Shown: positions 461 through 48,137 of the stretch, piece after piece
How positions within the stretch are numbered: position 1 is the first letter of the stretch
How the letters are laid out: every line of letters starts with the position of its first letter
Assembly (NCBI GenBank): GCA_964530725.1
Contig: CAZGYV010000001.1
Span: 15,829-79,828, forward strand
Source: an uncultured Candidatus Saccharibacteria bacterium
Lineage (GTDB): Bacteria > Patescibacteriota > Saccharimonadia > CAILAD01 > CAZGYV01
Direction of reading: 5' to 3'
Length of the DNA stretch: 64,000 nucleotides
Translations under genes and position numbers: made by a program
The notes under the pieces: generated by a model
Seen by the model: the letters and a program-made list of their open reading frames with translations, nothing else
Database searches by the model: none
What the model was told of the DNA's origin: nothing

Positions 461-1468
461 ATGCAAGCGGCAAATAAAATACCCATTACCGTCTTAACTG
501 GCTTTCTCGGCGCCGGCAAGACAACCGTGTTGAATTACATCCTTGTCAGTGGCCAGGGGCGTAAATTTGGCGCGATCGTCAACGATTTTGGTGATATTGG
601 CATAGATGGCAAGCTGGTGGAGAAAAAAACCGACAAGCAGCTCGAGCTAAGCAATGGCTGCATTTGCTGCAATCTGAACAATATGGACCTCACAGAGGCG
701 ATCGATCAGTTCACTCACCCTGCTTCACCGATGGATGAGATCTTGATAGAAGCTTCGGGCTTGGCCGCGCCCAAGGAGCTGCTGCTCACCTTGCGTGAGG
801 TGTTGAGTGAGCGAGTCGCATTGAGTGCCATCATTTGCGTCTTGGACGGCGAAAATTTCCTATCACTTGATAGTAATGAGGCTAAAATGGCTCGCGACCA
901 GATTAAATACGCTGATTTTGTACTGATCAATAAGTGCGATCTGATTGGTCAGAAAACCCGCCGCGAAATAGAGCAAATTGTCTTGGAGGCCAATCCCAAG
1001 GCGCGCCTGTTTGACATCGAGTACGGACGGGTTGATATTAATATTTTGCTCGGCAGTGGCCTGTCGAGCGCGTCAGATAAGTTACCGGATGGTACCAAGG
1101 CCGATCACGCGGCCCATCTTCACGGGCAATATCAAAGCCTTAGCTTTACTAGTGATAAACCGCTCCACCCGCTGGCCTTTCAGGAGTTTGTTAATAAAAA
1201 AATCCCCCGCCAGATCTATCGTGCCAAGGGCATAGTTGACTTGGGTGGCAAGGGCCACGATCGCAAATATATTTTTCAACTGGTGGGCGCGCGGGCTAAT
1301 CTGTCTTGGGAGGATTGGGCTGGTACAGCGCCAAAGACGGAGCTGGTATTTATTGGCCGAGATTTCGATGAGGATACGCTCAAGCGTGACCTCGAGGCTT
1401 GTGTGGACAGTGATCCGGCGAGTCAGCTTGAGGGCATGACGGTGCGCCTGCCTCGGCGTAATACTTAA
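461..1468 (+). CDS. COG0523/CobW-family G3E GTPase (putative metallochaperone)
   Basis: P-loop GFLGAGKTT, CxCC metal motif (NGCICCNL), EASGLAAP and NKCDL G-motifs, and a C-terminal CobW_C-like region; 335 aa. Confidence 0.85.
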   Translation: MQAANKIPITVLTGFLGAGKTTVLNYILVSGQGRKFGAIVNDFGDIGIDGKLVEKKTDKQLELSNGCICCNLNNMDLTEAIDQFTHPASPMDEILIEASGLAAPKELLLTLREVLSERVALSAIICVLDGENFLSLDSNEAKMARDQIKYADFVLINKCDLIGQKTRREIEQIVLEANPKARLFDIEYGRVDINILLGSGLSSASDKLPDGTKADHAAHLHGQYQSLSFTSDKPLHPLAFQEFVNKKIPRQIYRAKGIVDLGGKGHDRKYIFQLVGARANLSWEDWAGTAPKTELVFIGRDFDEDTLKRDLEACVDSDPASQLEGMTVRLPRRNT

Positions 1469-1474
1469 GTGTTT

Positions 1475-1666
1475 TTAGCCCGAACAAAATAGTCGATTTA
1501 TTATCAACTGCTTTGATCGGTCTTGCTGCTTAGCAGGTAGCCAAGCAGCAAGAGGCGGATTGGTAGGTTGTCGTCCCTTAGCAGATGACTGCCAGTAGAG
1601 CAGCATCACCAGAGCGAGCAAGATGATCACAGCGGTGACTAGGTGGCTGTAAAAGCGTTCCTTCAT
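1475..1666 (-). CDS. small single-pass membrane protein (63 aa), hypothetical
   Basis: Internal ATG (MKERFYSHLVTAVIILLALVMLLYWQ...) is preceded by a strong SD (caAGGAGGtacaggATG). It overlaps the stop of the upstream gene as ATGA and has one clear TM helix. Confidence 0.45.
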   Translation of the reverse strand: MKERFYSHLVTAVIILLALVMLLYWQSSAKGRQPTNPPLAAWLPAKQQDRSKQLIINRLFCSG

Positions 1667-2517
1667 CCTGTACCTCCTTGTCTTGAGAGACAGCTGTAAG
1701 TTCTCACGATTAAGCGAGTGACAGCTTCTAGCGAACAATCAGTGTTGTCAATGTAGATCTGCAGTTTGGGATTCTCATGGCATTTTCTAGCCAAATCTAC
1801 CGCCATGCGGTTGATATCTTCGGCCCGTGAGGAGCTATGACTTTCTGACCAACGGATGTTTTTCCTATTCTTGCGATCTGCCGGTCTGAGCGGCGCGACC
1901 TCTCGGGTGGCATCGAGCATATCGCGCTCGGCTATTTGAGCGACGATGGCCTGAAACGCGCCGTAGTCATCAACATCTTCACCCGATTCCATCATCCTGC
2001 GACGGGCTCGCTCGCGCGGGTCGGTATCGAGAAAGACGGCTAGCTTGAAGTCCCCGCGGTGCTCCCAGTAGCTGGATCTGCCATCGACGATTGCCACTTC
2101 TCCCCTGTCGCCGCATTGGCGCGCGAGGTGTCTGGTGCTTGCAATAACCCATGCACGCACTTCTGGCAAGCTAGAAACTAGCGAAACGTTTTTCTCGACT
2201 TCTCTACTACGAATGAACCGACTAATATCATCACTTTCGTAGTAAACGGTATCATCTCCTGCATCCATATGGACAAAGCGCCCGTACTCAAGAGCATTTT
2301 CGATAATAGCTCGTTGGGCAGCTATACTATGAGGATGATCAGATGAAGTAAGAAGCCTCTGGGTCGCTCTGCCGCCGAGTGCCGCGTAGGTGATGCCGCG
2401 ATAAAGCGCGCCGGTGTTGATGACCCAGCCATTGAGCTGCTCGGCTACCCGGCGAGCTGTCGTACTGCAGCCCGTGCCGGCCGGCCCGTCGATCACGATC
2501 ATGTTGAGCGCTGTCAT
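1663..2517 (-). CDS. cytidylate kinase-like P-loop kinase with C-terminal extension
   Basis: IVIDGPAGTGCSTTARRVAEQL P-loop followed by INTGALYRGITYAAL, then VDGRSS...KLAVFLDTDPRERARRR. This matches the Cmk pattern (IDGPxGxGK, DTGAMYR, GRD, FLTA..eRA.RR). At 284 aa it is longer than typical Cmk. Confidence 0.55.
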   Translation of the reverse strand: MTALNMIVIDGPAGTGCSTTARRVAEQLNGWVINTGALYRGITYAALGGRATQRLLTSSDHPHSIAAQRAIIENALEYGRFVHMDAGDDTVYYESDDISRFIRSREVEKNVSLVSSLPEVRAWVIASTRHLARQCGDRGEVAIVDGRSSYWEHRGDFKLAVFLDTDPRERARRRMMESGEDVDDYGAFQAIVAQIAERDMLDATREVAPLRPADRKNRKNIRWSESHSSSRAEDINRMAVDLARKCHENPKLQIYIDNTDCSLEAVTRLIVRTYSCLSRQGGTG

Positions 2518-2711
2518 TTGTTACCCCAATCTGGAAAAGAACGAAAAACCATCTCCGCTTATAGAGATGGCCTACCTTCCATTATTATATAATTATGTGC
2601 TGATAAGTCAATGGTGAAGTGCCACGTTACGAATCGGCACCTTATCAAGAAGGATCAGCCTCCTACTATCGACTACCAGTGTGGGGTGAAACTAGCGGCA
2701 TAAACGTGCGA

Positions 2712-2752
2712 GCCCCCGGAGAGACCCGCAGTATTGCAGGTGTCACGGGGGC
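2712..2752 (-). terminator. GC-rich hairpin just downstream of the 2757..3116 gene
   Basis: Perfect 7-bp arms GCCCCCG (2712-2718) and CGGGGGC (2746-2752) lie 5 nt after the stop. There is no U-tract. Confidence 0.4.
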
Positions 2753-2756
2753 GTGA

Positions 2757-3116
2757 TTAGCCGACTATGTTGAGGTGGGCTTGGGTGTGTGGGACGCTCT
2801 CGATGGCAACGCCACGCGAGGTGAAGAAATTGTTGAGAGCACGACTGATAGCGGCGTGCAGACGTACCTCGTACAGCTCGCGGCTCTCGGTGAACCAGGC
2901 TAGAATCACCAATTCGATGTCGACTGGCAAACTCTGGCTCTCGAAAATACCGTCGGTCTTGACGGTTCTGCCGGGAAAGAGGTCCTCGCCGAGCTCATCG
3001 TTGAATACCCTGGCGACGATGGCTTCGGCTTCTGAGGCGAATTGCTCGACCGTGAGGTTGAGGTTGGCCAGGGTATCGCGCCCTGCCTGCTTGGTGTAAA
3101 TGACATGGTGCGGCAC
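2757..3116 (-). CDS. hypothetical protein (119 aa), possibly tautomerase-superfamily-like
   Basis: Starts MPHHVIY (Pro at position 2, as in CHMI/4-OT-type tautomerases) and has a beta-alpha-beta feel in PVDIELVILAWFTESRELYEVRLHAAISRAL. The assignment is weak. The gene is high-GC relative to the backbone. Confidence 0.3.
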   Translation of the reverse strand: MPHHVIYTKQAGRDTLANLNLTVEQFASEAEAIVARVFNDELGEDLFPGRTVKTDGIFESQSLPVDIELVILAWFTESRELYEVRLHAAISRALNNFFTSRGVAIESVPHTQAHLNIVG

Positions 3117-3203
3117 AGTTGCCCCTTTCAGAGCGGATCTGGTTGTTAAGATGGTCTTATCGACCCCACAGCCTGCAAATTACTTTGTAAACTCTGAGGT
3201 CGA

Positions 3204-3228
3204 CCGGGGTGCTCTATGCGCACCCCGG
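3204..3228 (-). terminator. GC-rich perfect hairpin downstream of the 3250..3684 gene
   Basis: CCGGGGTGC (3204-3212) pairs with GCACCCCGG (3220-3228): 9 bp perfect, 7-nt loop, no U-tract. Confidence 0.4.
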
Positions 3229-3249
3229 AGCGATCCTTACTGAATGGAG

Positions 3250-3684
3250 CTAGTTCGCGGTCGTCGGCCAGGGGTCTCCCTCGGTAAGGTGTCTGATGAG
3301 CTTGTCATGCCAGTCGTCACGAACCACGTTGATGAACGTGGTGCCGCCTCCGACGCTCTCGTTGAGGGACTCGTTGCTGGTGCAGATCACCATAATGCAA
3401 TCAAGCCAACTGGCTCCGTAGCGAGCACCGCAGACGTGCTTGGTCAGGACGGAAAATGTATTGCCGTCAAGCTGAACCGACAGGAATGCACCGGTGGCCA
3501 AGTCGGCAGTCGTGGGGTAAATGCCGGCGTGGGGCTGGGAGCGCTCCAAGACGGAGATATCCTCGTCGCTAACATCGAGAGCCTGTTGGTAGGCCTGCGC
3601 GTGGCTGACGAATCGCTGCCACATGCTGGCCTCACGGCTGGTGGTTTCGTCGATGATCGAGCGTACCGCATTTCGAAAGCCCAT
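3250..3684 (-). CDS. hypothetical protein (144 aa; maximal ORF extends to 3741)
   Basis: I prefer the internal start MGFRNAVRSIIDE because of the SD (aaaGGAGccctATG); the ATG at 3741 has none. High-GC codon usage. I recognise no family. Confidence 0.4.
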   Translation of the reverse strand: MGFRNAVRSIIDETTSREASMWQRFVSHAQAYQQALDVSDEDISVLERSQPHAGIYPTTADLATGAFLSVQLDGNTFSVLTKHVCGARYGASWLDCIMVICTSNESLNESVGGGTTFINVVRDDWHDKLIRHLTEGDPWPTTAN

Positions 3685-3867
3685 AGGGCTCCTTTCACTT
3701 GAAGGATCGTCATTCACCGCGGATGCGGCAAATGTGTTCATTGCGCGAACCTGTAGATATTAGCACAACTATTGCTTTTTATCAAGGTTTGTGGTGTGAT
3801 TTCGTTTATTCTTCTTAGGACAATTGGCCGGGAGAAAATGCTCGAGGGCGCTGCTTGTTCCGGCATG

Positions 3868-3898
3868 AAAAAACCCGAGACTTAGACTCGGGTTTTTT
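3868..3898. terminator. bidirectional rho-independent terminator
   Basis: AAAAAACCCGAG-acttaga-CTCGGGTTTTTT: a 6-bp GC core flanked by an A-run and a T-run, so it can terminate in both directions. Confidence 0.7.
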
Positions 3899-3899
3899 C

Positions 3900-3922
3900 A
3901 TGGTGAACGTGGTTGAATCGAA
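3900..3922 (-). other. degenerate tRNA 3'-end-like remnant (candidate left attachment site)
   Basis: ATGGTGAACGTGGTTGAATCGAA compared with the tRNA-Glu 3' end ATGGTGATCCCACGGGGAATCGAA (10930-10953). The shared parts are ATGGTGA (ACCA end) and GAATCGAA (T-loop). The stems do not match and there is no cloverleaf. Confidence 0.3.
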
Positions 3923-4081
3923 TTGGAACGATATCCTTATGGAGTTCAGGCGACTCCATCACCTTATCAGGGGATTATCTCTGGCATAATCCATTCGCTA
4001 CGGTGATAGAACTAGTTTATGCTTGACACATAATGCTAATGCTTTTGTTATAGGCTTCTGAACCCTATAATACAGTGTAAT

Positions 4082-7000
4082 ATGTCTACATTACATAAAA
4101 GAGTATGGGGTAAAATCAAAAGCTACTTTGTAAGGGATGAAGCCGAGAAGCAAACACACCCCCTAAAGTCTCTCAGGCCAGCAAAGAATATTGATGGTCA
4201 CTCCGCTTATGTTGACGACATCGCTGAAGCGGTTGCAAATGATGACATTCTGAATATAGCCCTTACTGGCAGCTACGGTTCTGGTAAAAGTAGTATCCTC
4301 AGAGTCTTCAAGGATTCAACAAAGAAGAATAAAGTAGTCCAAATATCGTTCTCAAGCCTAGGGGCGAATATACAGGGTTATATCAATAAGTCTGAAGATG
4401 ATGAACACGAGAAGCTAAACAATCTCACAAACCTAATCCAAAAAGAGATAGTCAAACAGATACTCTTCAAGGAAAAGTACAAGAATATACCGTATTCAAA
4501 GTACAAGAGAGTCTCCAGCCCACGCTTGCCCCTAGTTTTTCTTAACGCATCATTAATATCTATAGTTCTGTTGGCCGTATCATTCGCAAACGGGTGGCTG
4601 GCTCAATTGTTTAAAGTTGCAGCCATTTCGGATTTCTGGTGGCAGGTAGCACTCTGTGCAGACCTATTCATTATCAGTACCTCGCTTATTGCTATCTTCG
4701 TGCTTACGCTATCTGGCAAAATACGGATAGATAAAATTGGTGCATCTTCAATATCATTATCACTCTCGGGAAGTGCAAGTTATTTTGACGAATACTTAGA
4801 TGAGATTATCTACTTCTTTGAAGCTGGACGATACAACGTGGTTATCTTTGAAGATATTGATAGGTTTGAGAGCCTTTATATTTTCGAGACCCTTCGACAG
4901 CTCAACACCATTCTGAATAACTCAGAGCAGATAAAACAACCCGTGACTTTCATCTACGCAATTAAAGACAGTATTTTCGCCAAAGAAGTTGTTGATGCTA
5001 AGAACGACCACAAAGAGCGAAGTGCAAACAGAACCAAGTTCTTTGACCTCATCATTCCTGTAGTTCCTTTCATTACTAATGTGAACTCACAAGACCACAT
5101 ACTTCAGGTTTTTGATAGCGAGTACCGAGACATCATCAGAGAGCCAGCCTCAGTAGTGGCAAAGCATATTACTGATATGCGTCTTGTGGTTAACATCTAT
5201 AACGAGTTTCTAATATTCAAGGATAAAGTTGTACTCCCCGACTCAGGCTTATCTCTGGATAAGTTATTTGCAGTTGTTGCTTACAAAAACTGGAATCTGG
5301 ATGAGTTTGAAAAAGTTAAAGATGGTGATAGTTCAATCGATAAGGTTATTGCTGCACACAGCAAATATGTTGACGATAGAATACGTACCATTAACTCTGA
5401 GATACGAAGCAAAGAAAGTGCCCTAAAGACTATCAATGCCATTGCTGAACGGTCACAGAGCTTAGGTAAGGTTCTTACCGACTATATAGCCGATGTATTG
5501 CGACAGGTGCAAGGTTCTGCTCAGTCCTATAGCCTTAACAGCACTTCTTATGACTTAGAAGATTTCACAACCGAAGATTTTTGGAGCGATATCATCAAAG
5601 GGGGTGAGACCAGTACTCTTATTGTCACCTATCGAGCATCAACTGGCTACACACAAAACCTTACACTGACGGCAGCCGACATCAGTAGTATTTGTAGCGA
5701 CAGCCTTGATAAAACCCAGTGGGATACAAAAGCAGCAGAAGCTATTGAAGACGAAATAGGAGTACTACGAGCCGAAGCTAATAAACTCCCATACCAAAGT
5801 ATCAAGGAACTCATTCAGGAATCACCAGAGTTTCTCGCTAAATTAAAGGAGCTCGATGGCGGTAAGGTTGTTGCTGACGAGGTAGGATGGCAACTCATTA
5901 AGGCTGGCTATATCGATACCGAATTCGTACACTACACCTCGCTATACTACAGCACCAGCATGAGCCTCAAAGCTCGTAGCTTCTTGCTAAATAATGTCCG
6001 ACTGAACAAACAGTCTTTGCATCACAAGTTTGAAAACGATGATGACATACAAGCACTTCTAGAAAAAATGGGCAGTACCTATCTTAATGATAAGAGCATG
6101 TACAACATCTCAATAGTTGATTACTTGCTCAGGAAGGATGACTCAAGAGTAGATAAGATAATAGCTAACTTGGCAGGCGGTGACGCTGACGACCTTCAAT
6201 TTATCAATGCATATGTGAAGGAGGGTTCTGAAGTAACCAAGTTTATCCAACAGCTTGCTGCACGATGGGATGGAATCTTTACGTATATTACAGGTGATAA
6301 CGAAATGGATGATAAAAAGAAGGGTCGTTTCATTAGCCTTGCATTAACTGCTGGTTCTGAGAGTATCAAGTATAAAACCAATCCATCCGTTAAAGGTTTT
6401 ATTGAGGCCAATAAAACAAACGTCCAGATACTTACAAACGATAACCAAGATAGCTCAGCCGTTGATGATGCTTGCCGATTGCTCATGCAGTTTGGAATTG
6501 AATTCGATACTCTTGATAATCTGAACGAGCAAGCAAAGGAAGCCGTAAAAGATTATGGTCTCTATACGGTCAATGAGCAGAACATGACATCTATCCTTGG
6601 AAGTCCAAGAGTGCCTTTGGATACAATCAAACGCACAAATGAATATGTCTACTCTCACTTGCTAGGGCATCTTGGTGAGTACGCAGACCTATTCCAGAAT
6701 CGAGCAGGCTCAGAATATGCACTTGCAGGCGAAGACGGATTTGAAGCAGTAATTGATGAGGTGTCAAAGATTTCGATGGATGACTTAGGATTAATTCTGG
6801 CTAATGCTGACCTGTCGAACTGTATCGTTCAAGATATTAATAAACTTGGTTCAGACACATGGCCTCTACTGGTTGAGAATGTCATTCTGTCCAACACTCT
6901 AAGTAACGTTCTGACATACTTTGAGCTGTCACATGCCGATGACAAGACAGTAATCAATGACCTGCTGGCTACATACCTTACTGAGGCTGAAACGGTTGTA

Positions 7001-7753
7001 CTTGATAAAGACTTTGCGGAGTATACTGCAGAAAATGTAAAGACCTTTGTTTTGGCCGTAGTAAATAGTTCAAAAATCGATGTGGAGACCACGGTTAATA
7101 TTGTCCATGATTGCTACACCGAAGACTACATTGACATATCAGATATTAAACCCCAAAACGGTAGCCTCTACGGTGCGTTGCTATCAAAGGACTGCATCGA
7201 AGATACGCAGGCGAACTTCGAGGCAATTAGAAACCTTTCTTGGGAAACGAAAAGCTCATACATAGCAAACTCCAAGAAGTTCTTAGAGTACATTGCAGCC
7301 CTCGCTCTCACTACGGACGAGCTAAACTCTATTGCTGAAGACGGCTCAATTCCTGATGCCGTTAACGAGTATATAGTCGATAACATCGTTGCTTATTCTG
7401 CTGAGTTATCTATCATGTCAGCTGCACACTTTGCCGAGTTTGCATTACGTAAGTCGAAGGTACTCAGTGCTGATTCACTTAAGGTTATTCTTGACGGAGC
7501 GGATAAGGAAACTAGCATTAAGCTCATAGGTCTAGCTTTAAATAATCTCGACTTTTCAAATATGCTCACACTCATGCCAGTTGTTGGTGGAGAGTATAAG
7601 AAGCTATCCGAGAAAAACAAACGACCATTATTTGAGAATACCGACTACAACTTAAACCTCATTGCCCGACTTAAAGAACTGGGCTTGGTGAGTAGTTATG
7701 AATTAAAAGATAATGAAACAAAAATAAAAGTAGTTATGAAGTCACGATGGTAG
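4082..7753 (+). CDS. KAP-family-like P-loop NTPase with transmembrane insert (1223 aa; YobI-like)
   Basis: Walker A LTGSYGSGKSS and Walker B-like VVIFEDIDRF are separated by two long hydrophobic helices (LVFLNASLISIVLLAVSFANGWLAQLF and WWQVALCADLFIISTSLIAIFVLTL). About 900 aa of unassigned, largely helical-looking sequence follows. Confidence 0.7.
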   Translation: MSTLHKRVWGKIKSYFVRDEAEKQTHPLKSLRPAKNIDGHSAYVDDIAEAVANDDILNIALTGSYGSGKSSILRVFKDSTKKNKVVQISFSSLGANIQGYINKSEDDEHEKLNNLTNLIQKEIVKQILFKEKYKNIPYSKYKRVSSPRLPLVFLNASLISIVLLAVSFANGWLAQLFKVAAISDFWWQVALCADLFIISTSLIAIFVLTLSGKIRIDKIGASSISLSLSGSASYFDEYLDEIIYFFEAGRYNVVIFEDIDRFESLYIFETLRQLNTILNNSEQIKQPVTFIYAIKDSIFAKEVVDAKNDHKERSANRTKFFDLIIPVVPFITNVNSQDHILQVFDSEYRDIIREPASVVAKHITDMRLVVNIYNEFLIFKDKVVLPDSGLSLDKLFAVVAYKNWNLDEFEKVKDGDSSIDKVIAAHSKYVDDRIRTINSEIRSKESALKTINAIAERSQSLGKVLTDYIADVLRQVQGSAQSYSLNSTSYDLEDFTTEDFWSDIIKGGETSTLIVTYRASTGYTQNLTLTAADISSICSDSLDKTQWDTKAAEAIEDEIGVLRAEANKLPYQSIKELIQESPEFLAKLKELDGGKVVADEVGWQLIKAGYIDTEFVHYTSLYYSTSMSLKARSFLLNNVRLNKQSLHHKFENDDDIQALLEKMGSTYLNDKSMYNISIVDYLLRKDDSRVDKIIANLAGGDADDLQFINAYVKEGSEVTKFIQQLAARWDGIFTYITGDNEMDDKKKGRFISLALTAGSESIKYKTNPSVKGFIEANKTNVQILTNDNQDSSAVDDACRLLMQFGIEFDTLDNLNEQAKEAVKDYGLYTVNEQNMTSILGSPRVPLDTIKRTNEYVYSHLLGHLGEYADLFQNRAGSEYALAGEDGFEAVIDEVSKISMDDLGLILANADLSNCIVQDINKLGSDTWPLLVENVILSNTLSNVLTYFELSHADDKTVINDLLATYLTEAETVVLDKDFAEYTAENVKTFVLAVVNSSKIDVETTVNIVHDCYTEDYIDISDIKPQNGSLYGALLSKDCIEDTQANFEAIRNLSWETKSSYIANSKKFLEYIAALALTTDELNSIAEDGSIPDAVNEYIVDNIVAYSAELSIMSAAHFAEFALRKSKVLSADSLKVILDGADKETSIKLIGLALNNLDFSNMLTLMPVVGGEYKKLSEKNKRPLFENTDYNLNLIARLKELGLVSSYELKDNETKIKVVMKSRW

Positions 7754-7919
7754 ACGTGGGGTGCGGTAGGGCTCGCCAAGCGTAGCGGCACAAGTCCTGT
7801 TTAGCGGGATACTACTTTATAGCATAAGCATGCCATAAGCAAAAAACGAAAACTCCATACCTCTGCATCTGTAAATTGGCGGATTTCTAGTAGTTTTTGG
7901 CTATGACTAACTATACGTA

Positions 7920-8414
7920 TTAGTAGCTTTTAGGAATAGCCTTACAAACTTCATCAAGAAGCTCATCAGGACTCATGTTGAGGTTTTGGTTTAAGTCTTT
8001 AAACTCCATAGTTATCATCACATAGACCATAGTCTGGAAGTTATTTGGGTGTTCTAGCTTCTCTGCAACTTGGGTTGTATATGCAGTTAGTCGTAATAGT
8101 TCGTCTGGCTTTTTGAATCCAGTTCTTGCAGAGACTGTCATAAGTCGCAACTCTTCCTTACTGGCATTAGGATTCTGGCGTTTATGCATGTCATACATCT
8201 TCTTTTGCGTCTTGGCTATTGAAACAGGACTACCTGCTTTTTTGAATAGTCCACCAATCCACTTGAAGATAGCAACAACCCAAAAGAACAGACCAAACCA
8301 TACAAGGATACCCGCAAACATTGAGGGTAGTAAATGGAATATACTAGGCAGCATTAAAGCTAACCCGATAAGGAACAGTTGATAAGGCTTAATACTTTTT
8401 CTTTGCTTCGACAT
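7920..8414 (-). CDS. hypothetical two-TM membrane protein (164 aa)
   Basis: Start MSKQRKSIKPYQ is preceded by an SD (ttAAGGAGaaaaacATG). Hydrophobic hairpin LFLIGLALMLPSIFHLL / FAGILVWFGLFFWVVAIF, followed by a soluble C-terminal domain. The 196-aa track ORF has an unsupported N-terminal extension. Confidence 0.55.
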   Translation of the reverse strand: MSKQRKSIKPYQLFLIGLALMLPSIFHLLPSMFAGILVWFGLFFWVVAIFKWIGGLFKKAGSPVSIAKTQKKMYDMHKRQNPNASKEELRLMTVSARTGFKKPDELLRLTAYTTQVAEKLEHPNNFQTMVYVMITMEFKDLNQNLNMSPDELLDEVCKAIPKSY

Positions 8415-8575
8415 GTTTTTCTCCTTAAAAATAAAAACGACACCACGCTTGGTGTCTAAACCAGTAACAGAGTTTTTAAGCCCGATTACTTCGCATGGTG
8501 CCGTTTTCAAGGCTTAAAACCACGCAAAATTACTTGCGGTACTCTATAACTGGTTTAGACTATTTCATTATATAA
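8415..8575 (-). promoter_or_regulatory. structured 5' leader: long closing stem, two internal hairpins, then a terminator-like hairpin abutting the SD
   Basis: Arms 8454-8473 and 8541-8560 pair 18/20. Inner stems are 8474-8482/8511-8519 (9 bp) and 8523-8527/8534-8538 (5 bp). Hairpin GACACCA-cgct-TGGTGTC (8439-8456) is followed on the minus strand by GTTTTTATTTTT and then AAGGAG-ATG. Confidence 0.45.
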
Positions 8576-8856
8576 CAAAAACACCCCCATGTTGCTCAAA
8601 TCACCCCTGAGCCCAAACGATATTTTGCGTTTAAAATCAAAAGTTGATGTTATGCCCATCTCGTAGATAAAAGTGCGTGTTTTGACGGTTTATTTACAGT
8701 ATGTTGGTCGATTATTTTGCTTCCAAAATTAAAAGATGAGCATAAGTCCACCTCACAAATATGAGCGAAAAAAATGAAGCAAGTTCAGCGGTATTTCCGA
8801 CCACTATGGAGTTTTTGGTTATCCACAGACACTTGTCAAAATAAACATAAAAGGTA

Positions 8857-8885
8857 TTGACTTTTTGGGCAAAGTTTGATATAAT
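8857..8885 (+). promoter_or_regulatory. near-consensus sigma70-type promoter
   Basis: TTGACT (8857-8862), a 17-nt spacer, then TATAAT (8880-8885). Confidence 0.6.
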
Positions 8886-8891
8886 ACCAAC

Positions 8892-9128
8892 AGTTAATGA
8901 CGTGGTACACATGTTAAATCTCTTAGCTAAATCATACACAGAACCGACACGGCGTGGTGTTTAGCTAGTTATTTGATAGTCCTATAGTCACTACTCTTGT
9001 TGGAAGCAATAAAGAGAGAGCATCAGAGTTTCGCCTTCGTGAAAATATGCCCATTCTCCTACGTTGTCCTACTAAATAATTAGTAAGATAACAGGCTGAT
9101 TTAGTACGCCCTCGGACGGGTGTTTTTT
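8892..9128 (+). ncRNA. candidate ~235-nt non-coding transcript (or leader of the recombinase operon)
   Basis: Runs from the consensus promoter at 8857-8885 to a weak terminator: CGCCC-tcggac-GGGTG plus TTTTTT (9107-9128). Only 6-17-codon ORFs lie inside. It contains several hairpins, e.g. CTACTAAataaTTAGTAAG. Confidence 0.35.
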
Positions 9129-9154
9129 ATATCTGCCAAAGAATAAGGGTTAAC

Positions 9155-9376
9155 ATGCCACGACAAAGAACATGGAGCGGTCAGATGCTCACAATATCAG
9201 ATAAACCTATCATTACCACAGGAGAAGCTCGCAAGATACTAGGCAAGGGTTACGAAGAGCTTTCAGATGAACACCTAATGGGAGTAATTGTTTCACTTTC
9301 TAAGATAGCAGACTATTTCCTGACTAGGATTAGTGTTCCAGAAAACTATAAGGTATGTGGTAAAATGGGGATATGA
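9155..9376 (+). CDS. small protein (73 aa), possible HTH/recombination directionality factor
   Basis: ATGA-coupled to the recombinase start. The segment ITTGEARKILGKGYEELSD looks like a helix-turn-helix. I recognise no family. Confidence 0.4.
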   Translation: MPRQRTWSGQMLTISDKPIITTGEARKILGKGYEELSDEHLMGVIVSLSKIADYFLTRISVPENYKVCGKMGI

Positions 9377-10971
9377 ATACGATGGATAAAAAAGAGCCAA
9401 TCAAAGTTTATGGTTATAAGCGTGTGTCTACTGAGGAGCAAGTTGATGGGATGTCTTTACATACTCAAGAGCTTGCAATTCAAGCCTACGCAGAGCAGCA
9501 CAATCTTGAGGTGGTGCATATCTTTCATGACGATGGAATATCCGCCAAAACAGCCAAGCGCCCGCAACTTCAAGAGATGCTCGCAAAACTCACAGCCAAA
9601 GATAACGAGGTGCGTGGTGTAGTTGTTTACAATCTCAGTCGTATCTCTCGTGATTTAGAGTCATACAGTCGTGATATAGGCTATCATCTTTCGGCAAAAG
9701 GCGTTCGTCTGTACTCTACAGTTGAAAACATTGACGATACACCAGAGGGTCGTTTGATGCGTAATATTGCACTCTCTATCCACCAGTACGATAACGATAC
9801 AAAAAGTCGAACAGTTAAAGACAATATGAAACAAGTTGCTCTTGAGGGTTGGTGGCAAGGCAATATCCCCTACGGATATAGCCGTGTTAAAGTACCGATT
9901 GGCATTAAGGACAAAGACGGTAAAACTAAGGAGCGTCTCACTCTCGAACCTGATAGCAATAACGACTTGAGCGACAAGATGCGTATGATGCTAGAGCGGT
10001 TCAGTGAGGGTGATTTGAAACAGTCCGAGCTTACTGATTATGCTGAGAGTATCGGCCTATACAGCCCAAAGGGTGAACGTTTTGCACCTCAGTCAATGAA
10101 TAACATTCTAAGAAATATTACCTATGCGGGCTTTGTGTGTAATAAGATGACAGACTTTGAACCTGTAAAGGCTAAACACGTAGGTCTTATCTCGCTTGAG
10201 ACATATTTACGTAATCAGGCTGTTCTTGATGGTCGTAAGCCTGATGAGGCGATGCCTCGCTTTACTGCTAGCTACCCTCTCAAGCACTCTCTGTTATGTA
10301 TTAACTGTCATAAACCCTTAACAGGTAGTGCACCTACTGGAGGTTCTGGTAAGAGCTCACCTCGCTATCACTGCACAAGATGTACGGGTACTGGCTCAAA
10401 AGGTCTTGATAGAACGAATGAGCTATTTGAAGCATTCTTAAACGATGTTACGCCTACAGATAAGATGATTAAGCTCTTTGATGTGATTGTACGCCGTATC
10501 GCCAAAGACAAGCTCTCAAACGTGAATAAGGCTATCAGCGATGTTAGAGACGATATGACCAAGATAGACACTGATATGCAGAAAGCACTTCAGTCTATGC
10601 TCGATGGCGATATCAGTAAGCAAGAGAAAGAAGACTACCAGTCGTCATTACGTATTAAGCGACTCAACCTAGAGGACGAACTTAATAAGCTACGAGACAT
10701 ACAGAGCCTCAATGAGTCTACTATTACCTATGTTTGTAACTTTATGGACGCTCCTGCTCGTATGTGGCAAGATGCAGACGCAGAGACAAAAGTCATCTTC
10801 CAACAGATGGTTACAGAGAACGGTATTGTATTCGACCTCAAGAACGAAAAGTTTGGAACGGACGGTTTGAGTATGTTTTACAGATTGAAAGACAACAAAA
10901 AAGACCCATCAAAGGCTGATGAGTCCCTTATGGTGATCCCACGGGGAATCGAACCCCGGTTACCAGGATGA
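9373..10971 (+). CDS. large serine recombinase (532 aa)
   Basis: Resolvase-type N-terminal domain (VYGYKRVSTEEQ with catalytic Ser; GISAKT..RPQLQEML; VVVYNLSRISRD). Recombinase domain (WQGNIPYGY). Zn-ribbon CINCH...YHCTRC. Coiled-coil C-terminal region. The last 41 nt overlap tRNA-Glu in antisense. Confidence 0.9.
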   Translation: MNTMDKKEPIKVYGYKRVSTEEQVDGMSLHTQELAIQAYAEQHNLEVVHIFHDDGISAKTAKRPQLQEMLAKLTAKDNEVRGVVVYNLSRISRDLESYSRDIGYHLSAKGVRLYSTVENIDDTPEGRLMRNIALSIHQYDNDTKSRTVKDNMKQVALEGWWQGNIPYGYSRVKVPIGIKDKDGKTKERLTLEPDSNNDLSDKMRMMLERFSEGDLKQSELTDYAESIGLYSPKGERFAPQSMNNILRNITYAGFVCNKMTDFEPVKAKHVGLISLETYLRNQAVLDGRKPDEAMPRFTASYPLKHSLLCINCHKPLTGSAPTGGSGKSSPRYHCTRCTGTGSKGLDRTNELFEAFLNDVTPTDKMIKLFDVIVRRIAKDKLSNVNKAISDVRDDMTKIDTDMQKALQSMLDGDISKQEKEDYQSSLRIKRLNLEDELNKLRDIQSLNESTITYVCNFMDAPARMWQDADAETKVIFQQMVTENGIVFDLKNEKFGTDGLSMFYRLKDNKKDPSKADESLMVIPRGIEPRLPG

Positions 10972-11005
10972 GAACCTGGCGTCCTAACCGCTAGACGATG
11001 GGACC
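10931..11005 (-). tRNA. tRNA-Glu (anticodon CUC), 75 nt with encoded CCA
   Basis: Manual cloverleaf: acceptor GGTCCCA/TGGGATC, D-arm GTCT-AGCGGTTA-GGAC, anticodon arm CCAGG-TTCTCAT-CCTGG, T-arm CGGGG-TTCGATT-CCCCG, discriminator A, then CCA. Confidence 0.9.
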
Positions 11006-11122
11006 ATTGTCATATTATATACATTATACCATATTTACACTACTTTTTCTAGTCCTAGGGTTCAGGCAGTTTAGGTAATAATATCTCATTGTACTTGTGC
11101 TAAAATAGTATTAAAGAAGTAT

Positions 11123-12358
11123 ATGGCAAACAAAAAACAACTCCCAAAAAGTTTTGATATCTCGGTACGGCGTCGATCGGTTAAAACGACTGATAAGAAT
11201 GACTCGAGCCTAGCCGCCAGTCAGGCTGAAGAGTCCGGCAAGGGCTTGTCGACCACGAAAAGTGATGATGACAAGCTACTCTCCTCGCCTGCTAAAAAAC
11301 GCCTATCGAAAAAAGCCAAAATCATCATAGCTGTCGTGGCCGGCGTATTTGTGGTGGTGGCCATCGTGGCGACTATCTACTTTTTAAATAAGAGTAAGCC
11401 CCAGGCAAGTCGCACTCAGACTGGTGTCAAGGTCTCGCAACCACCGGCCAAGCCACCAACCGCACCCAGCCCCTTGACTGGCGTTGAAGTTGATCCAGCC
11501 GCTGCTAAGCAGCCGGTTGTGGCTGTGGTGGTAGAGAATCTCTACCCTAGCGCTCGTCCGCAATCCGGGCTATCCGATGCTGGCGTGGTTTACGAGGCTC
11601 TAGCTGAGGGCGGCATCACCCGCTATCTGGCCTTGTTTCAAGATCACCTGGCAGCTGATATCGGTCCGGTGCGCTCTTTGCGGACTTATTTTGTCGACTG
11701 GGGCTTGGAGCACAACGCGCCAGTGGCTCATGTTGGCGGCAATGCCGACGCGCTTGATCTCATTAAGCCGCTGGGCATGAAAAACCTCGATCAGTTTCAT
11801 AATGGCAGTTATTTCCGGCGCATAAATACCCGTGCCGCGCCGCATAATGTTTATATCAAAAGCGAGCAGATGAAAAAGCTGCTGAATGATCGCGGCTTTG
11901 GCGGACCGCCAGATTTTAAGCCGTGGCCGCGCAAAGACGACACTAAGTCGCAGAGCTTAACCGCCTCGACTATTGAAGTTAATTTCTCCGGTCCGGACTA
12001 TAAAGCCCGCTTCGACTACGATCCGGCCACCAACAGCTACACTCGCTTTATTCGCAATGCGGCTGATATCGATGCTAACACTAAGGCGCCGATTAAAACT
12101 AAGAACATCATCGCGATGTATATGCCGACGCAATTCGGCGTTACTCGAATCGGCGAGTCGACTGTCGTCATGCAGACGGTCGGCAGCGGCAAGGCGGTGA
12201 TTTTCACAGATGGCGTGGCGACCGAAGCTACCTGGAAAAAAACTGACCACAAGGCACGTACTCAATTTTTAGACGCTAACGGCGCCGAGATCAAGCTCAA
12301 TCGAGGCCAAACCTGGGTGTCGGTGGTACCGGTCGGTAAAAGCGTTAGCTATAAATAA
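11123..12358 (+). CDS. DUF3048-family secreted/membrane-anchored protein
   Basis: N-terminal TM anchor (IIIAVVAGVFVVVAIVATIYF). Motifs PVVAVVVENLYPSARPQSGLSDAGVVYEALAEGGITRYLALFQ and GPVRSLRTYFVDW are typical of DUF3048 (YerB-like) proteins. Confidence 0.75.
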   Translation: MANKKQLPKSFDISVRRRSVKTTDKNDSSLAASQAEESGKGLSTTKSDDDKLLSSPAKKRLSKKAKIIIAVVAGVFVVVAIVATIYFLNKSKPQASRTQTGVKVSQPPAKPPTAPSPLTGVEVDPAAAKQPVVAVVVENLYPSARPQSGLSDAGVVYEALAEGGITRYLALFQDHLAADIGPVRSLRTYFVDWGLEHNAPVAHVGGNADALDLIKPLGMKNLDQFHNGSYFRRINTRAAPHNVYIKSEQMKKLLNDRGFGGPPDFKPWPRKDDTKSQSLTASTIEVNFSGPDYKARFDYDPATNSYTRFIRNAADIDANTKAPIKTKNIIAMYMPTQFGVTRIGESTVVMQTVGSGKAVIFTDGVATEATWKKTDHKARTQFLDANGAEIKLNRGQTWVSVVPVGKSVSYK

Positions 12359-44865: not shown

Positions 44866-45780
44866 CTAGTCGCCAAAACCGCCAATGTTTGTCGAGCCGT
44901 CGATGCCACCGGCCCCATCAGGGGCTTGGCCGGTTTGGCCGTGCCCCGCGTCGGGGTTGCCGGTGGCCTTGGTGCCACCGCCGGCGATTGAGCCACCACC
45001 ACCATTGCCACCACTAGGTGGCGGACTGGTTGGCGGAGGACTCGTCGGGGGCGGTGGGTTGTTCGGTGGAGGCGGTTGAGCGATTGGCGGCTGAGCTACC
45101 GTACCGCCGCCGCCAGCGTTGGCTGGAGGTACCGGTGAGGCTGGGCCAGCCTGAGTGGCTGGATTGCCTTGCGGTGCTGATGCAGGGTCTGCCTGCGGCT
45201 CGCCGGCCGGAGCCGAACCAGTTGCCTGACTCTGTGCCGCGTCCGCCGCCGGCTCGCCTACTACTGACGTAGCGGCTTCCGAGCTGACAGCCGATGGCGC
45301 ATCCTGGACAACAGCTGCCGGAGTCTCGGTGGGAGCCGGTGTGACCACCGTATCTCCTCTCAAGCTCCAGTTAACCACCGCACCAGCTACCAGCAGCGCG
45401 ACTGCCAGCAAACTGACACCCACGCGGCGACGGAACTGAGACCAGTCCCGCCGATCAGTCTCGGGCACCGTCTTGGGACGGGCCTTGACTGGTCGCACCA
45501 GCGTCAGGGGCTTGACCTTGGTCGCTGGCTCTGGGATTTCCGGTAGCAGCGAGACAACGTCTACGATCACGACATCCGAAAGGATGTGCGTGGTCGTCGC
45601 TGGCGGGCTAGCTGACTCGATGACAGCCAGCGCCATACTGGTCGTCGGCGAAGCTTCCTCTTCCTTGGTCGAACCGTAGAGCACCGGCAGCGCTGTGCTG
45701 TCGGGCTTGAGGAACGATTGCAGATCGAAGACCTGCGCTTCCGCTTCCTCGAACTTCGTGGCCGTCAGTGTCTCTGCCAC
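44866..45780 (-). CDS. membrane-anchored, Pro/Ala/Gly-rich disordered protein (304 aa), hypothetical
   Basis: GTG start after GGAGGggata, overlapping the upstream TAG (TAGTG). Central TM helix (VGVSLLAVALLVAGAVVNW), a long P/A/G/S/T-rich region, and a C-terminus GGIDGSTNIGGFGD. Confidence 0.55.
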   Translation of the reverse strand: MAETLTATKFEEAEAQVFDLQSFLKPDSTALPVLYGSTKEEEASPTTSMALAVIESASPPATTTHILSDVVIVDVVSLLPEIPEPATKVKPLTLVRPVKARPKTVPETDRRDWSQFRRRVGVSLLAVALLVAGAVVNWSLRGDTVVTPAPTETPAAVVQDAPSAVSSEAATSVVGEPAADAAQSQATGSAPAGEPQADPASAPQGNPATQAGPASPVPPANAGGGGTVAQPPIAQPPPPNNPPPPTSPPPTSPPPSGGNGGGGSIAGGGTKATGNPDAGHGQTGQAPDGAGGIDGSTNIGGFGD

Positions 45781-46082
45781 TATCCCCTCCTTCTCGTTTG
45801 GCGGCAACCAGACTTCTCGGCCCGACGCATGCTGCGCGCGAGTTTGGGATCTCGCATCAACATTCGCCGGGTGTCGGCCATGGCTTCACTCTCCCAGTGC
45901 TCTTGGCGCAACACGTCAAAGTGCTGGGTGATCTTGGCCTGACGTTCCTTGGCGGCCTTGGCGCGCTTGCTCTTTCGACGAGCCTTTTTCAGCCAGCGAG
46001 CGGCGTGAACCGCTACGACATAGCTGAAGATTAGCCCGAGTAATACGGCAGCAATCCAGAATTGAGCCGAGTTTTCACTCAT
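45780..46082 (-). CDS. small TM + highly basic protein (100 aa), hypothetical
   Basis: MSENSAQFWIAAVLLGLIFSYVVAVHAARWLKKARRKSKRAKAAKERQAK... The ATG lies 1 nt after the upstream TGA (TGAGATG). Confidence 0.5.
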   Translation of the reverse strand: MSENSAQFWIAAVLLGLIFSYVVAVHAARWLKKARRKSKRAKAAKERQAKITQHFDVLRQEHWESEAMADTRRMLMRDPKLARSMRRAEKSGCRQTRRRG

Positions 46083-46083
46083 C

Positions 46084-46593: not shown

Positions 46594-46704
46594 TGCTTGC
46601 CCTTTCTACTAGACAATATGTTGACAAGTTTCACTGCTTTTAAGGGATTTAAAAGCAGATTCAAGCCGTCAAGCAGTATTATACTCCTATCAAAGAATGA
46701 TTGG

Positions 46705-46745
46705 GTGACCCCTCCCATCTCAGGTAGTGAGACGAGAGGGGTCAC
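46705..46745 (-). terminator. perfect GC-rich hairpin inside the high-GC block
   Basis: GTGACCCCTC (46705-46714) pairs with GAGGGGTCAC (46736-46745), with a nested TCTCA/TGAGA stem. Lies 35 nt after the stop of 46780..47400. Confidence 0.5.
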
Positions 46746-46779
46746 AGTTGGACATGGACATGGGACAAGTTAGGTTTGC

Positions 46780-47400: not shown

Positions 47401-47414
47401 GATTTCCTCCTTAA

Positions 47415-47981: not shown

Positions 47982-48085
47982 TTTCGCTCCCAATGTAAGG
48001 AACTTCTCTTGAAGCTTTTGCCTCAGAGTCAGCCAAGGATTTTGAAAAATCCTCAAGCTGATTACTAACGCAAAATGCTAGGGCA

Positions 48086-48120: not shown

Positions 48121-48137
48121 CACTTACCCCTCCAACT

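What the first reader, a model, noticed from the sequence alone, without database searches (positions are those of the whole stretch)
10931..10971. Serine recombinase ORF reads 41 nt into the antisense of tRNA-Glu: attachment site inside the integrase 3' end
The recombinase frame does not stop before the tRNA. Its last ~13 codons (...MVIPRGIEPRLPG*) are the reverse complement of the tRNA acceptor/T-arm (10931-10971). The crossover site must therefore lie within or next to the int 3' end, and excision would give the enzyme a different C-terminus. That would be an integration-state-dependent protein, as known for elements whose attP lies inside a gene (SSV1 int; integration-dependent immunity in mycobacteriophages, both tyrosine systems). 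tRNA 3'-end targeting is classic for tyrosine integrases and uncommon for large serine recombinases.
Basis: partly seen in the sequence, partly recalled or inferred. Interest (0 to 1): 0.55.

Follow-up and report, generated by a model that had tools for sequence, protein, structure and literature searches.

The report
Serine integrase split by tRNA integration
A 7-kb defence island sits at the very 3' end of a tRNA-Glu gene, and the crossover site of its serine integrase lies inside the integrase's own coding sequence, so insertion swaps the enzyme's last ~27 residues for tRNA-antisense codons; a whole clade of Saccharibacteria integrases does the same.

Summary
ORF 9373-10971 (+), a 532-aa large serine recombinase, overlaps tRNA-Glu(CTC) 10931-11005 (-) by 41 nt. 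Of 101 family members, 86 end in ...(M/L)V plus a tRNA-antisense peptide. In 19 loci the ORF runs into an annotated tRNA (Glu, Ala, Arg or His), always entering at the CCA end. The window holds a 7,030-bp low-GC island (3901-10930) with a 6-nt core, TGGTGA, at both ends. Its left end (3900-3989) encodes, in the integrase frame, a conserved helix (MVNVVESNWNDILMEFRRLHHLIRGLSLA*, pN/pS about 0.2). This helix is fused to the integrase in a circular 4.3-kb relative and in other loci where no tRNA follows. Near-identical integrase genes (98-99%) diverge exactly after ATGGTGA. Unoccupied tRNA-Glu genes have a terminator hairpin abutting CCA, like the hairpin now at the island's left end. I also found that the last about 45 nt of conserved int coding sequence form, on the opposite strand, an intrinsic terminator that replaces the tRNA's displaced one. 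It is present in all 27 loci examined, with covariation and strand-specific G.U pairs. What the tail swap does is unknown: the AlphaFold2 model shows a tethered helix predicted with low confidence. I rate this a new variant of a known kind. No precedent was found in the literature searched.

The parts
3866..3900 (-). Displaced native intrinsic terminator of tRNA-Glu. It is the B arm of attL and host DNA.
   Evidence: Minus-strand fold -24.2 kcal/mol, z -7.6. Unoccupied tRNA-Glu genes L020-L022 have such a hairpin abutting the CCA end, and L022's stem (cccgagac..ctcggg) resembles this one.
3901..3906 (.). attL core TGGTGA. This is the left island boundary and contains the crossover.
   Evidence: It is the only identity between attL and attR. 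A 6-nt core is seen in every locus where attL and attR (or a P' arm) could be compared: TGGTGA for Glu, TGGTAC for Arg-GCG, TGGTGG for Ala, TGGGGT for His.
3900..3989 (+). P' arm of attP plus the coding sequence for the C-terminal tail of the excised-form integrase (MVNVVESNWNDILMEFRRLHHLIRGLSLA*).
   Evidence: Conserved at island left ends in L003-L008, L012, L019, L023, L026, L028, L030, L032 and L033. pN/pS is 0.1-0.5, variable columns by codon position are 8/3/16, and the stop position is conserved. Fused to Int in L001, L002 and L003.
3924..3929 (+). TGGAAC (the W-N codons), 17 nt after the core. It is present in every tail-encoding P' arm found and is a candidate integrase-binding motif.
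   Evidence: W9 and N10 are the only invariant tail residues; L032 has TGGAAT, the same W-N codons. A few P' arms carry TAGAAC instead, which puts a stop codon at this position (see Noticed in passing).
4082..7753 (+). Island cargo: a Tmn-type defence NTPase (YobI-like P-loop), 1223 aa.
   Evidence: PADLOC Tmn E 1.2e-63. Pfam YobI-ATPase E 6.9e-101. GC is 0.38-0.44 against 0.48-0.54 in the flanks.
7920..8510 (-). Island ORF of 196 aa with no family match.
9155..9376 (+). Conserved 73-aa ORF overlapping the int start (ATGA). Candidate directionality factor or regulator; this role is inferred.
   Evidence: Homologs lie immediately upstream of int in L002, L003, L023, L026 and L030, sharing the motif IITT.EARKILGKE..LSDE.LMG. 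No Pfam or PHROG match.
9373..10971 (+). Large serine recombinase, integrated form (532 aa). Residues 1-521 come from the element; the last 11 codons and the stop come from tRNA antisense.
   Evidence: phrog_95 integrase, 3.9e-69. R17, S19 and Cys309/312/334 are invariant in the 36-sequence alignment A1; in the 41-sequence alignment A3, which includes two distant LSRs, R17 and S19 are nearly invariant and the three Cys invariant. The AF2 model shows a coiled coil at 363-444.
10889..10929 (-). Intrinsic terminator for tRNA-Glu, embedded antisense in the int codons for KKDPSKADESL. It is also the P arm of attP.
   Evidence: Top terminator-like hit in 3700-11200: 14 pairs, loop 3, then a T run. 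Fold energy -16.9 on the minus strand against -8.6 kcal/mol on the plus strand. Present in 27/27 loci. Covariation: 99.2% paired, 3 compensatory pairs, 2 invariant G.U pairs.
10931..10936 (.). attR core TGGTGA, the antisense of CCA, the discriminator and two acceptor-stem bases. This is the right island boundary.
10931..11005 (-). tRNA-Glu(CTC), intact with CCA encoded. It is the B' arm of the attachment site.
   Evidence: It is 100% identical to three unoccupied metagenomic copies.

Best explanation
Window 3901-10930 is a 7,030-bp integrative island of a Saccharibacteria-type genome. It carries a Tmn defence gene and was inserted by its own large serine recombinase at the extreme 3' end of the tRNA-Glu(CTC) gene.

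The island's attP lies inside the recombinase ORF. The P arm is the last ~45 nt of conserved coding sequence. The crossover falls within TGGTGA, which is the M-V codons and the antisense of CCA, the discriminator and two acceptor bases. The P' arm encodes a further 27 residues that form an amphipathic helix on a disordered linker.

In the circular element the enzyme is therefore 548 aa. Integration moves the tail-coding segment 7 kb away to attL. The prophage-state ORF then reads 11 codons into tRNA antisense and stops on the antisense of the anticodon loop.

The tRNA stays intact, but its own terminator is displaced to attL. The element compensates with a terminator hairpin plus U-run encoded antisense within the int linker codons.

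Shown here: the boundaries, the 6-nt core, the sharp identity breakpoints, a circular relative with the fused tail, the shape of the empty site, purifying selection on the tail, and conservation and covariation of the terminator.

Inferred: the crossover dinucleotide probably lies at core positions 5-6, because identity always extends exactly that far. The tail is a working part of the excised-form enzyme, and its loss on integration changes activity, stability or directionality; I put that at about 0.4. The 73-aa upstream ORF may be the directionality factor.
For: Anatomy.

Family-wide recurrence: 86/101 homologs have tRNA-antisense tails. In 19 loci an annotated tRNA overlaps the int 3' end at its CCA end: Glu-CTC/TTC, Ala-GGC, Arg-GCG/CCT/TCT and His-GTG.

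Fused-tail forms: circular L002, plus L001 and L003. Tail-coding left ends preceded by host terminator hairpins are found in 14 loci.

Breakpoints fall exactly after ATGGTGA among int genes 98-99% identical. Empty sites L020-L022 show the expected shape.

Tail selection: pN/pS 0.1-0.5. A WNx(I/L/F)xx(E/D)(F/L) pattern persists at 24-45% tail identity, while the corresponding integrases are only about 33-45% identical to the window's.

Terminator. UUCG tetraloops appear on the minus strand only.
Against: No read-level or contig-level observation of this element's own circle junction or of the empty site in its own host: both exact-junction searches gave 0 hits.

The P and P' arms show no clear dyad symmetry, which is unusual for serine-integrase sites (my inspection).

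AF2 places the tail with low confidence (pLDDT 40-57) and does not dock it.

Some P' arms carry TAG in place of the TGG codon, which would give a tail-less enzyme (MVSP..LF*). These are in L004/L030, at the left end of a T4SS element, and at L028 position 642. A tail may therefore not be essential.

No activity has been measured.
Confidence: 0.8

Rival explanations
1. Integration at the CCA end is real and attP lies inside int, but the tail swap has no consequence. The tail codons persist only because the P' half-site must lie there, and the enzyme works the same with any C-terminus.
For: The only invariant tail residues, W-N, are the DNA motif TGGAAC at a fixed distance from the core. Integrated-form tails are arbitrary, from 11 to more than 40 residues depending on the tRNA. 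Variants with TAG in place of TGG lack the helix. AF2 does not dock the tail.
Against: Codons 12-29 lie beyond a usual serine-integrase half-site, yet they keep the frame, the stop position and a hydrophobic periodicity, with mostly synonymous change (pN/pS about 0.2). The helix pattern survives complete DNA divergence.
Confidence: 0.4
2. The element behaves like a classical tRNA island. The crossover lies deeper in the tRNA (T loop or anticodon loop), and the 3' part of the tRNA at 10931-10971 is element-borne.
For: The P' arm contains GAATCGAA, like the T-loop antisense, offset by 1 nt. This could be a degraded tRNA copy.
Against: attL shares only 6-7 nt with the tRNA. The same int (98% aa) is joined to tRNA-Glu(CTC) in the window and to tRNA-Glu(TTC), with compensatory stem differences, in L031. 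The window tRNA is identical to unoccupied copies.
Confidence: 0.04
3. The overlap is coincidental, or the island is a fixed, dead remnant: the ORF simply lacks a stop before the tRNA.
For: A 13-codon read-through is expected about half the time by chance. No circle of this particular element was found.
Against: The same geometry appears in 19 loci on 7 tRNA species. Near-identical int genes occur in four different downstream contexts. The separated tail is under purifying selection. A relative is circular.
Confidence: 0.03
4. The hairpin in the P arm is not a tRNA terminator. It is an att-site feature that mimics the B arm, which is itself a terminator hairpin, or it is an element of the int mRNA.
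For: The B and P arms have the same layout, A-run, hairpin, 5-9 nt, TGG, which would suit recognition of both by one protein. The hairpin is also present in the circular form L002.
Against: The fold is strand-asymmetric: mean -14.9 on the minus strand against -9.1 kcal/mol on the plus strand. Two invariant G.U pairs would be A.C on the int mRNA, and UUCG loops and the U-run sit on the tRNA strand. Duplex DNA recognition would not select for G.U pairs.
Confidence: 0.15

Closest known systems
Large serine integrases of phages and mobile elements (phiC31, Bxb1, A118/LI, TP901-1, TnpX)
   Same: Resolvase catalytic domain, Recombinase domain, Cys4 zinc ribbon with a coiled-coil insertion. Very short attL/attR identity. 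int lies at the edge of the element.
   Different: Only about 25% identical to any annotated phage integrase. The target is the CCA end of tRNA genes rather than a protein-coding gene. attP lies inside the enzyme's own ORF. The arms are not obviously symmetric.
tRNA-gene genomic islands with tyrosine integrases (Islander classes; P4-like)
   Same: Target is the tRNA 3' end. int abuts the tRNA. The tRNA is kept functional. Small islands with defence cargo.
   Different: A different enzyme superfamily. There is no displaced tRNA fragment as a long direct repeat, only 6 nt. The element restores the terminator, not the tRNA. Per Mageeney 2020 (PMC7192596), use of tRNA genes by serine integrases was 14/297 and had not been reported before.
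Fusellovirus SSV1 integrase (attP inside int; my own knowledge, not checked here)
   Same: The attachment site lies within the integrase ORF, so integration splits the gene.
   Different: SSV1 has a tyrosine recombinase, is archaeal, and the split cuts the enzyme into two large parts. Here only a 27-residue C-terminal tail is exchanged and all catalytic and DNA-binding domains stay together.
Integration-dependent immunity of mycobacteriophages BPs/Brujita (Broussard and Hatfull, PMC3694055)
   Same: attP lies inside an ORF, so integration changes the protein's C-terminus. There, a degradation tag is removed and Rep is stabilised.
   Different: There the gene is the repressor and the integrase is a tyrosine recombinase. 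Here the gene is the serine integrase itself. No degradation-tag motif is evident, as tail ends vary.
Tycheposons of Prochlorococcus (Hackl et al., 10.1101/2020.12.28.424599)
   Same: Small cargo and defence islands, some carrying a large serine recombinase (the 27 of 937 that lack a tyrosine recombinase).
   Different: A different phylum. The passages I read do not mention attP lying within the recombinase gene. No sequence relationship was tested.

Membership tests
Large serine recombinase (serine integrase) | N-terminal resolvase catalytic domain with the nucleophilic Ser and conserved Arg residues | tested here: met
   PF00239 E 2.7e-27, residues 12-159. Y15, R17, S19, Q23, R63, R90 and R93 are invariant in the 36-sequence family alignment A1; in the 41-sequence alignment A3, which includes two distant LSRs, these seven are nearly invariant, at 90% or more.
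Large serine recombinase (serine integrase) | Recombinase domain (PF07508) following the long alpha-E helix | tested here: met
   PF07508 scores 29 bits against a cutoff of 21.1. AF2 helix 124-157 followed by a mixed domain.
Large serine recombinase (serine integrase) | Zinc-ribbon domain with four Cys and an inserted coiled coil | tested here: met
   C309, C312 and C334 are invariant in A1 and A3, and C337 is invariant in A2. AF2 helices 363-410 and 416-444, pLDDT about 90. Pfam Zn_ribbon_recom itself hits only some relatives.
Large serine recombinase (serine integrase) | Short att sites with minimal attP/attB identity around a 2-bp crossover | tested here: met
   6-7 nt common core, with no longer repeat. 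The crossover dinucleotide itself cannot be located by sequence.
Large serine recombinase (serine integrase) | Each att site is an imperfect inverted repeat of two half-sites | tested here: inconclusive
   By inspection, the P and P' arms share only scattered positions (GG..ATC). TGGAAC has no inverted partner. The left arms are variable hairpins.
Large serine recombinase (serine integrase) | Catalyses attP x attB recombination; excision needs a directionality factor | not testable with these tools
   Only comparative footprints are available. The 73-aa ORF is a candidate factor without a family match.
Classical tRNA-gene island (tyrosine integrase, Islander type) | Tyrosine recombinase (Phage_integrase domain) | tested here: not met
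   Pfam gives Resolvase and Recombinase only.
Classical tRNA-gene island (tyrosine integrase, Islander type) | Displaced tRNA 3' fragment as a direct repeat at the far end of the island | tested here: not met
   No match of 12 nt or more to the tRNA region anywhere else in the window. The 46-nt pattern with 3 mismatches matches only itself.
Split-integrase elements (SSV1 type) | attP within the int ORF, so that integration partitions the gene | tested here: met
   The enzyme class differs, however (serine, not tyrosine), so it works like these elements but is not a member.
Integration-dependent immunity | attP inside the repressor gene; integration removes a C-terminal degradation tag | tested here: not met
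   The split gene is the integrase. No repressor was identified. Tail termini are not conserved. Proteolysis cannot be tested here.
Tmn defence system (cargo) | Match to the Tmn NTPase profile | tested here: met
   PADLOC PDLC02220 E 1.2e-63 over residues 19-696. Pfam YobI-ATPase E 6.9e-101.

The most novel reading that the evidence does not exclude
The exchangeable C-terminal helix is a built-in sensor of integration state for a serine integrase. The 548-aa circle-encoded enzyme would be competent or biased for integration. The tail-less chromosomal enzyme would have altered directionality, stability or partner binding. Directionality would then be partly hard-wired by splitting the gene at its own crossover site, on top of a three-way overlap of protein linker, antisense tRNA terminator and att arm. 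Placing the crossover at the universal CCA end would explain how the clade hops between tRNA species.
Probability: 0.3. Interest if true: 0.85.

Novelty: new variant of a known kind. Interest (0 to 1): 0.68.

Why it matters
Serine integrases are the main tools for inserting large DNA, and their control of direction is an active research topic. In this natural clade the enzyme's own gene is rewritten by the reaction it catalyses, which gives a simple test: compare the 548-aa, 532-aa and 521-aa proteins.

The clade also shows that serine integrases can target tRNA genes systematically, across seven tRNA species. A large survey could only flag this use as rare and unproven (PMC7192596).

The crossover sits at the CCA end, so the tRNA is left intact and a replacement terminator is supplied from inside a coding sequence. 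That is a compact example of overlapping codes.

In practical terms, these enzymes and their 40-50-bp sites could provide integration tools for Saccharibacteria and other Patescibacteria, which have few genetic tools. They also mark small, exchangeable defence islands in these reduced genomes.

Tried and rejected
- Exact search for this element's own empty-site junction in metagenome contigs and for its P' arm in IMG/VR: 0 hits each.
- Look-up of the right-flank DUF3048 protein by exact sequence, to find a strain without the island: not on record.
- The first alignment of 36 homologs was too divergent for locus finding, so I used 14 closer ones.
- Long direct repeats of the tRNA 3' end, as in tyrosine-type islands: none found.
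- Dyad symmetry of attP: no convincing inverted repeat (inspection).
- Pfam, PHROGs and PADLOC for the 73-aa and 196-aa ORFs: no hits.
- AF2 of the reconstructed 548-aa protein to see where the tail docks: the linker and tail have low confidence, so there is no answer.
- IMG/VR and INPHARED for close relatives or phage context: nothing above about 35% and 25% identity. The elements are not recognisable phages.
- Literature searches for an attP inside a serine integrase gene, or for Saccharibacteria serine-integrase islands: no precedent found. One search failed on term format.
Full report
**1. Observation.**
ARAGORN places tRNA-Glu(CTC) at 10931-11005 on the minus strand. The ORF 9373-10971 (+) encodes 532 aa ending ...KADESLMVIPRGIEPRLPG*. 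It carries Pfam Resolvase (E 2.7e-27) and Recombinase (29 bits, above cutoff) and matches PHROG 95 'integrase' at 3.9e-69. The catalytic Ser19 and Arg17 are conserved: invariant across 36 family members (A1) and nearly invariant in a 41-sequence alignment that includes two distant LSRs (A3). Cys309, Cys312 and Cys334 of the zinc-ribbon cluster are invariant in both, and Cys337 is invariant among the 14 closest homologs. An AlphaFold2 model shows the coiled coil typical of large serine recombinases at residues 363-444. The ORF and the tRNA overlap by 41 nt (10931-10971). The codons ATG GTG (M-V) are the antisense of CACCA, and the stop TGA lies on the antisense of the anticodon loop.

**2. The island.**
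GC falls to 0.38-0.44 between about 4000 and 11000, against 0.48-0.54 on both sides. There is no long repeat of the tRNA 3' end anywhere in the window. At 3900, however, the sequence cATGGTGAacgtggttgaatcgaattggaac... shares ATGGTGA with the junction at 10930. It is preceded by a strong hairpin plus T-run at 3866-3900 (-24.2 kcal/mol on the minus strand, z -7.6). Read in the frame set by ATG GTG, it encodes MVNVVESNWNDILMEFRRLHHLIRGLSLA*. The island is therefore 3901-10930 (7,030 bp). It contains:
- a Tmn-type defence NTPase (PADLOC 1.2e-63; Pfam YobI-ATPase 6.9e-101);
- a 196-aa ORF with no family match;
- a 73-aa ORF overlapping the int start;
- int itself.

**3. The feature is a family trait.**
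A search of 5.8 billion proteins returned 107 homologs. Of the 101 that belong to the clade (E <= 1e-54), 86 end in ...S.(M/L)V followed by a peptide that is the antisense translation of a tRNA T arm (GIEPxLPG, GVEPALSG, GFEPxx, RVERTT, GLEPTT...). Four end in a W-N tail like the one encoded at 3900. Three end in MVSP..LF*. The rest are fragments or otherwise differ. The six distant recombinases P0102-P0107 show none of this.

I read DNA for 31 distinct related loci and reached the following.
- In 19, counting the window, an ARAGORN-called tRNA overlaps the int 3' end, always entered from its CCA end. The tRNAs are Glu-CTC, Glu-TTC, Ala-GGC, Arg-GCG, Arg-CCT, Arg-TCT and His-GTG.
- For the ten Glu loci where the ORF stops at the same TGA, the overlap is exactly 41 nt; in L025 the ORF reads on through the whole tRNA.
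- The record titles are Candidatus Saccharibacteria, Saccharimonadia or Patescibacteria MAGs.

**4. Evidence that attP lies inside int.**
(a) P0077 lies on a 4,320-nt contig whose ends overlap by 30 nt, meaning a 4,290-bp circle. That circle has no tRNA, and its Int continues after LV into NLVESKWNDLISDFYRIK..., homologous to the window's left-end peptide.

(b) Tail-coding left ends, each directly preceded by a host-type terminator hairpin, occur upstream of int in L003-L008, L012, L019, L023, L026, L028, L030 and L032. L033 has one preceded by a remnant of another int 3' end instead.

(c) attL and attR share exactly six bases in every case: TGGTGA for Glu, TGGTAC for Arg-GCG, TGGTGG for Ala, TGGGGT for His. 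These are the antisense of CCA, the discriminator and two acceptor bases.

(d) Int genes nearly identical to the window's are joined to different DNA exactly after ATGGTGA:
- L003: 125/126 identical, then 11/64.
- L030: 119/126 identical, then 13/64.
- L031: 123/126 identical, then a tRNA-Glu(TTC) with compensating stem differences.

So the tRNA part is host DNA and the breakpoint is the core.

(e) Three metagenomic contigs carry a tRNA-Glu identical to the window's but unoccupied. In L021 and L022 a hairpin abuts the CCA end, and L022's hairpin (cccgagac...ctcggg) resembles the one now at 3866-3900.

The reconstructed sites are:
- attP: ...GATGAGTCCCTTA-TGGTGA-ACGTGGTTGAATCGAATTGGAAC...
- attB: ...CTCGGGTTTTTTCA-TGGTGA-TCCCACGGGGAATCGAACC...

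**5. The tail is a real coding sequence.**
Across seven related left ends the 27 codons after the core keep the frame and the stop position. Variable columns by codon position are 8/3/16, and pairwise pN/pS is 0.10-0.54, mostly about 0.2. Across tails whose DNA has diverged completely, W9-N10 are invariant and a hydrophobic periodicity, WNx(I/L/F)xx(E/D)(F/L)xx(L/I/V/W/F), persists. The W-N codons are TGGAAC (TGGAAT in L032), always 17 nt after the core. That motif may therefore be constrained as a DNA site as well.

The AlphaFold2 model of the reconstructed 548-aa enzyme has a confident body (pLDDT about 90). The linker 506-526 is disordered, and a helix at 528-547 has low confidence (40-57) and is not docked. 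Structure prediction does not tell what the tail does.

**6. A second overlapping function.**
The best terminator-like site in 3700-11200 is on the minus strand at 10929-10899: 14 pairs, a 3-nt loop, then a T run. It sits immediately 3' of the tRNA and inside the int codons for KKDPSKADESL. It folds at -16.9 kcal/mol on the minus strand against -8.6 on the plus strand.

All 24 loci examined first, and three more later, have a hairpin plus U-run at this place, including the circular element and the Arg-, Ala- and His-targeting relatives. Mean energy over the first 24 is -14.9 on the minus strand against -9.1 on the plus strand. There are two designs:
- a long stem encoded by DPSxxDES;
- a short GC stem closed by a UUCG tetraloop on the minus strand, encoded by DSEES, DAEAS or TEVP.

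In ten long-stem sequences 99.2% of cells pair (0/500 shuffles reach this). Three pairs show compensatory double changes. Two pairs are invariant G.U, which would be A.C mismatches in the int mRNA.

I conclude that the element supplies a replacement intrinsic terminator for the tRNA whose own terminator it displaces. The same nucleotides serve as protein linker and as the P arm of attP.

**7. Mechanism.**
Shown: site-specific insertion at the tRNA's CCA end by an element whose attP is inside int. The consequence is a 548-aa circle-state enzyme and a 532-aa chromosomal enzyme lacking the helix.

Inferred:
- The crossover dinucleotide lies within TGGTGA, probably at positions 5-6. Identity between P' and the tRNA always extends exactly that far for five different tRNA ends, while positions 1-4 must be supplied by the element to rebuild CCA and the discriminator.
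- Recognition relies mainly on the right arms (the tRNA in attB and the TGGAAC-bearing arm in attP), because the left arms are variable hairpins.
- Loss of the helix changes the enzyme's behaviour (about 0.4). The integrated tails are arbitrary in sequence and length, so what matters would be the absence of the helix, not the tRNA-coded peptide.
- Circles probably spread by natural transformation or by mobilisation. No replication or transfer genes are present.

**8. Comparison and novelty.**
The enzyme is a member of the large serine recombinases by domain criteria, but it is only about 25% identical to annotated phage integrases and absent from IMG/VR at more than 35% identity. The system works like tRNA islands of tyrosine integrases but fails their defining features. 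It resembles SSV1 (attP inside int) and integration-dependent immunity (C-terminus changed by integration; PMC3694055), but with a different enzyme class and a different gene.

Mageeney et al. 2020 found serine integrases at t(m)RNA genes in 14/297 islands and wrote that such use 'has not been reported previously' and needs proof. Some tycheposons carry a large serine recombinase. I found no paper describing attP within a serine integrase gene or these Saccharibacteria elements. I rate it a new variant of a known kind, with interest 0.68.

**9. Limits.**
All evidence is comparative. The window's own circle and empty site were not found. The att arms lack obvious symmetry. The role of the tail and of the 73-aa ORF is inferred.

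Noticed in passing
L003 7151; L004 11559; L030 9673; L033 4086: Elements sit in tandem arrays at one tRNA. An upstream int is fused to the P' arm, and so to the tail, of the next element, giving attP-like P-P' junctions inside chromosomes. This implies recombination of an incoming attP with an occupied attL or attR, which canonical serine integrases do not do.
   Followed up: partly
L004 11559-11584; L030 9673-9698; L028 642: Some P' arms have TAGAAC in place of TGGAAC, so the fused int ends MVSP..LF*. In L004 and L030 this arm is the left end of a T4SS-bearing, ICE-like element (TraG, VirB4, TrbL and PrgI-like genes). It could be a tail-less variant or a fixed element.
   Followed up: partly
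L007 11441-11683; L016 11483-11748: Int abuts an 18-20-nt copy of the tRNA-Glu 3' end. After about 170-190 nt come a terminator hairpin and a complete tRNA-Glu. This is a duplicated partial target that I could not explain.
   Followed up: no
window 4082-7753: The island's main cargo is a Tmn-type defence NTPase. Sister islands with related int modules carry other cargo: HNH, Mrr_cat, SLFN/AlbA_2 with DUF4379, and methyltransferase with helicase. These look like exchangeable mini defence islands.
   Followed up: partly
window 9155-9376: A conserved 73-aa ORF overlaps the int start codon. It has the motif IITT.EARKILGKE..LSDE.LMG and no match in Pfam, PHROGs or PADLOC. It is a candidate directionality factor.
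   Followed up: partly
window 45000-49100: A block with GC 0.59-0.64, against about 0.49 in the rest of the window, holds six minus-strand ORFs (169-326 aa; two of them overlap, so they may not all be genes) with no Pfam match. It may be another acquired segment.
   Followed up: partly
window 1000-3900: The left flank has GC 0.52-0.545, slightly above the right flank. It holds CobW-like GTPase and cytidylate kinase genes plus two overlapping unassigned ORFs at 3244-3741. Whether it is core genome was not established.
   Followed up: no
L031 1784-1843: An int 98% identical to the window's is joined to tRNA-Glu(TTC) instead of tRNA-Glu(CTC). One enzyme therefore appears to use both Glu isoacceptor genes.
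   Followed up: partly
P0035 (897 aa): One homolog is annotated as a fusion with UDP-N-acetylmuramate dehydrogenase domains. This is probably an ORF reading through the junction into a neighbouring gene.
   Followed up: no
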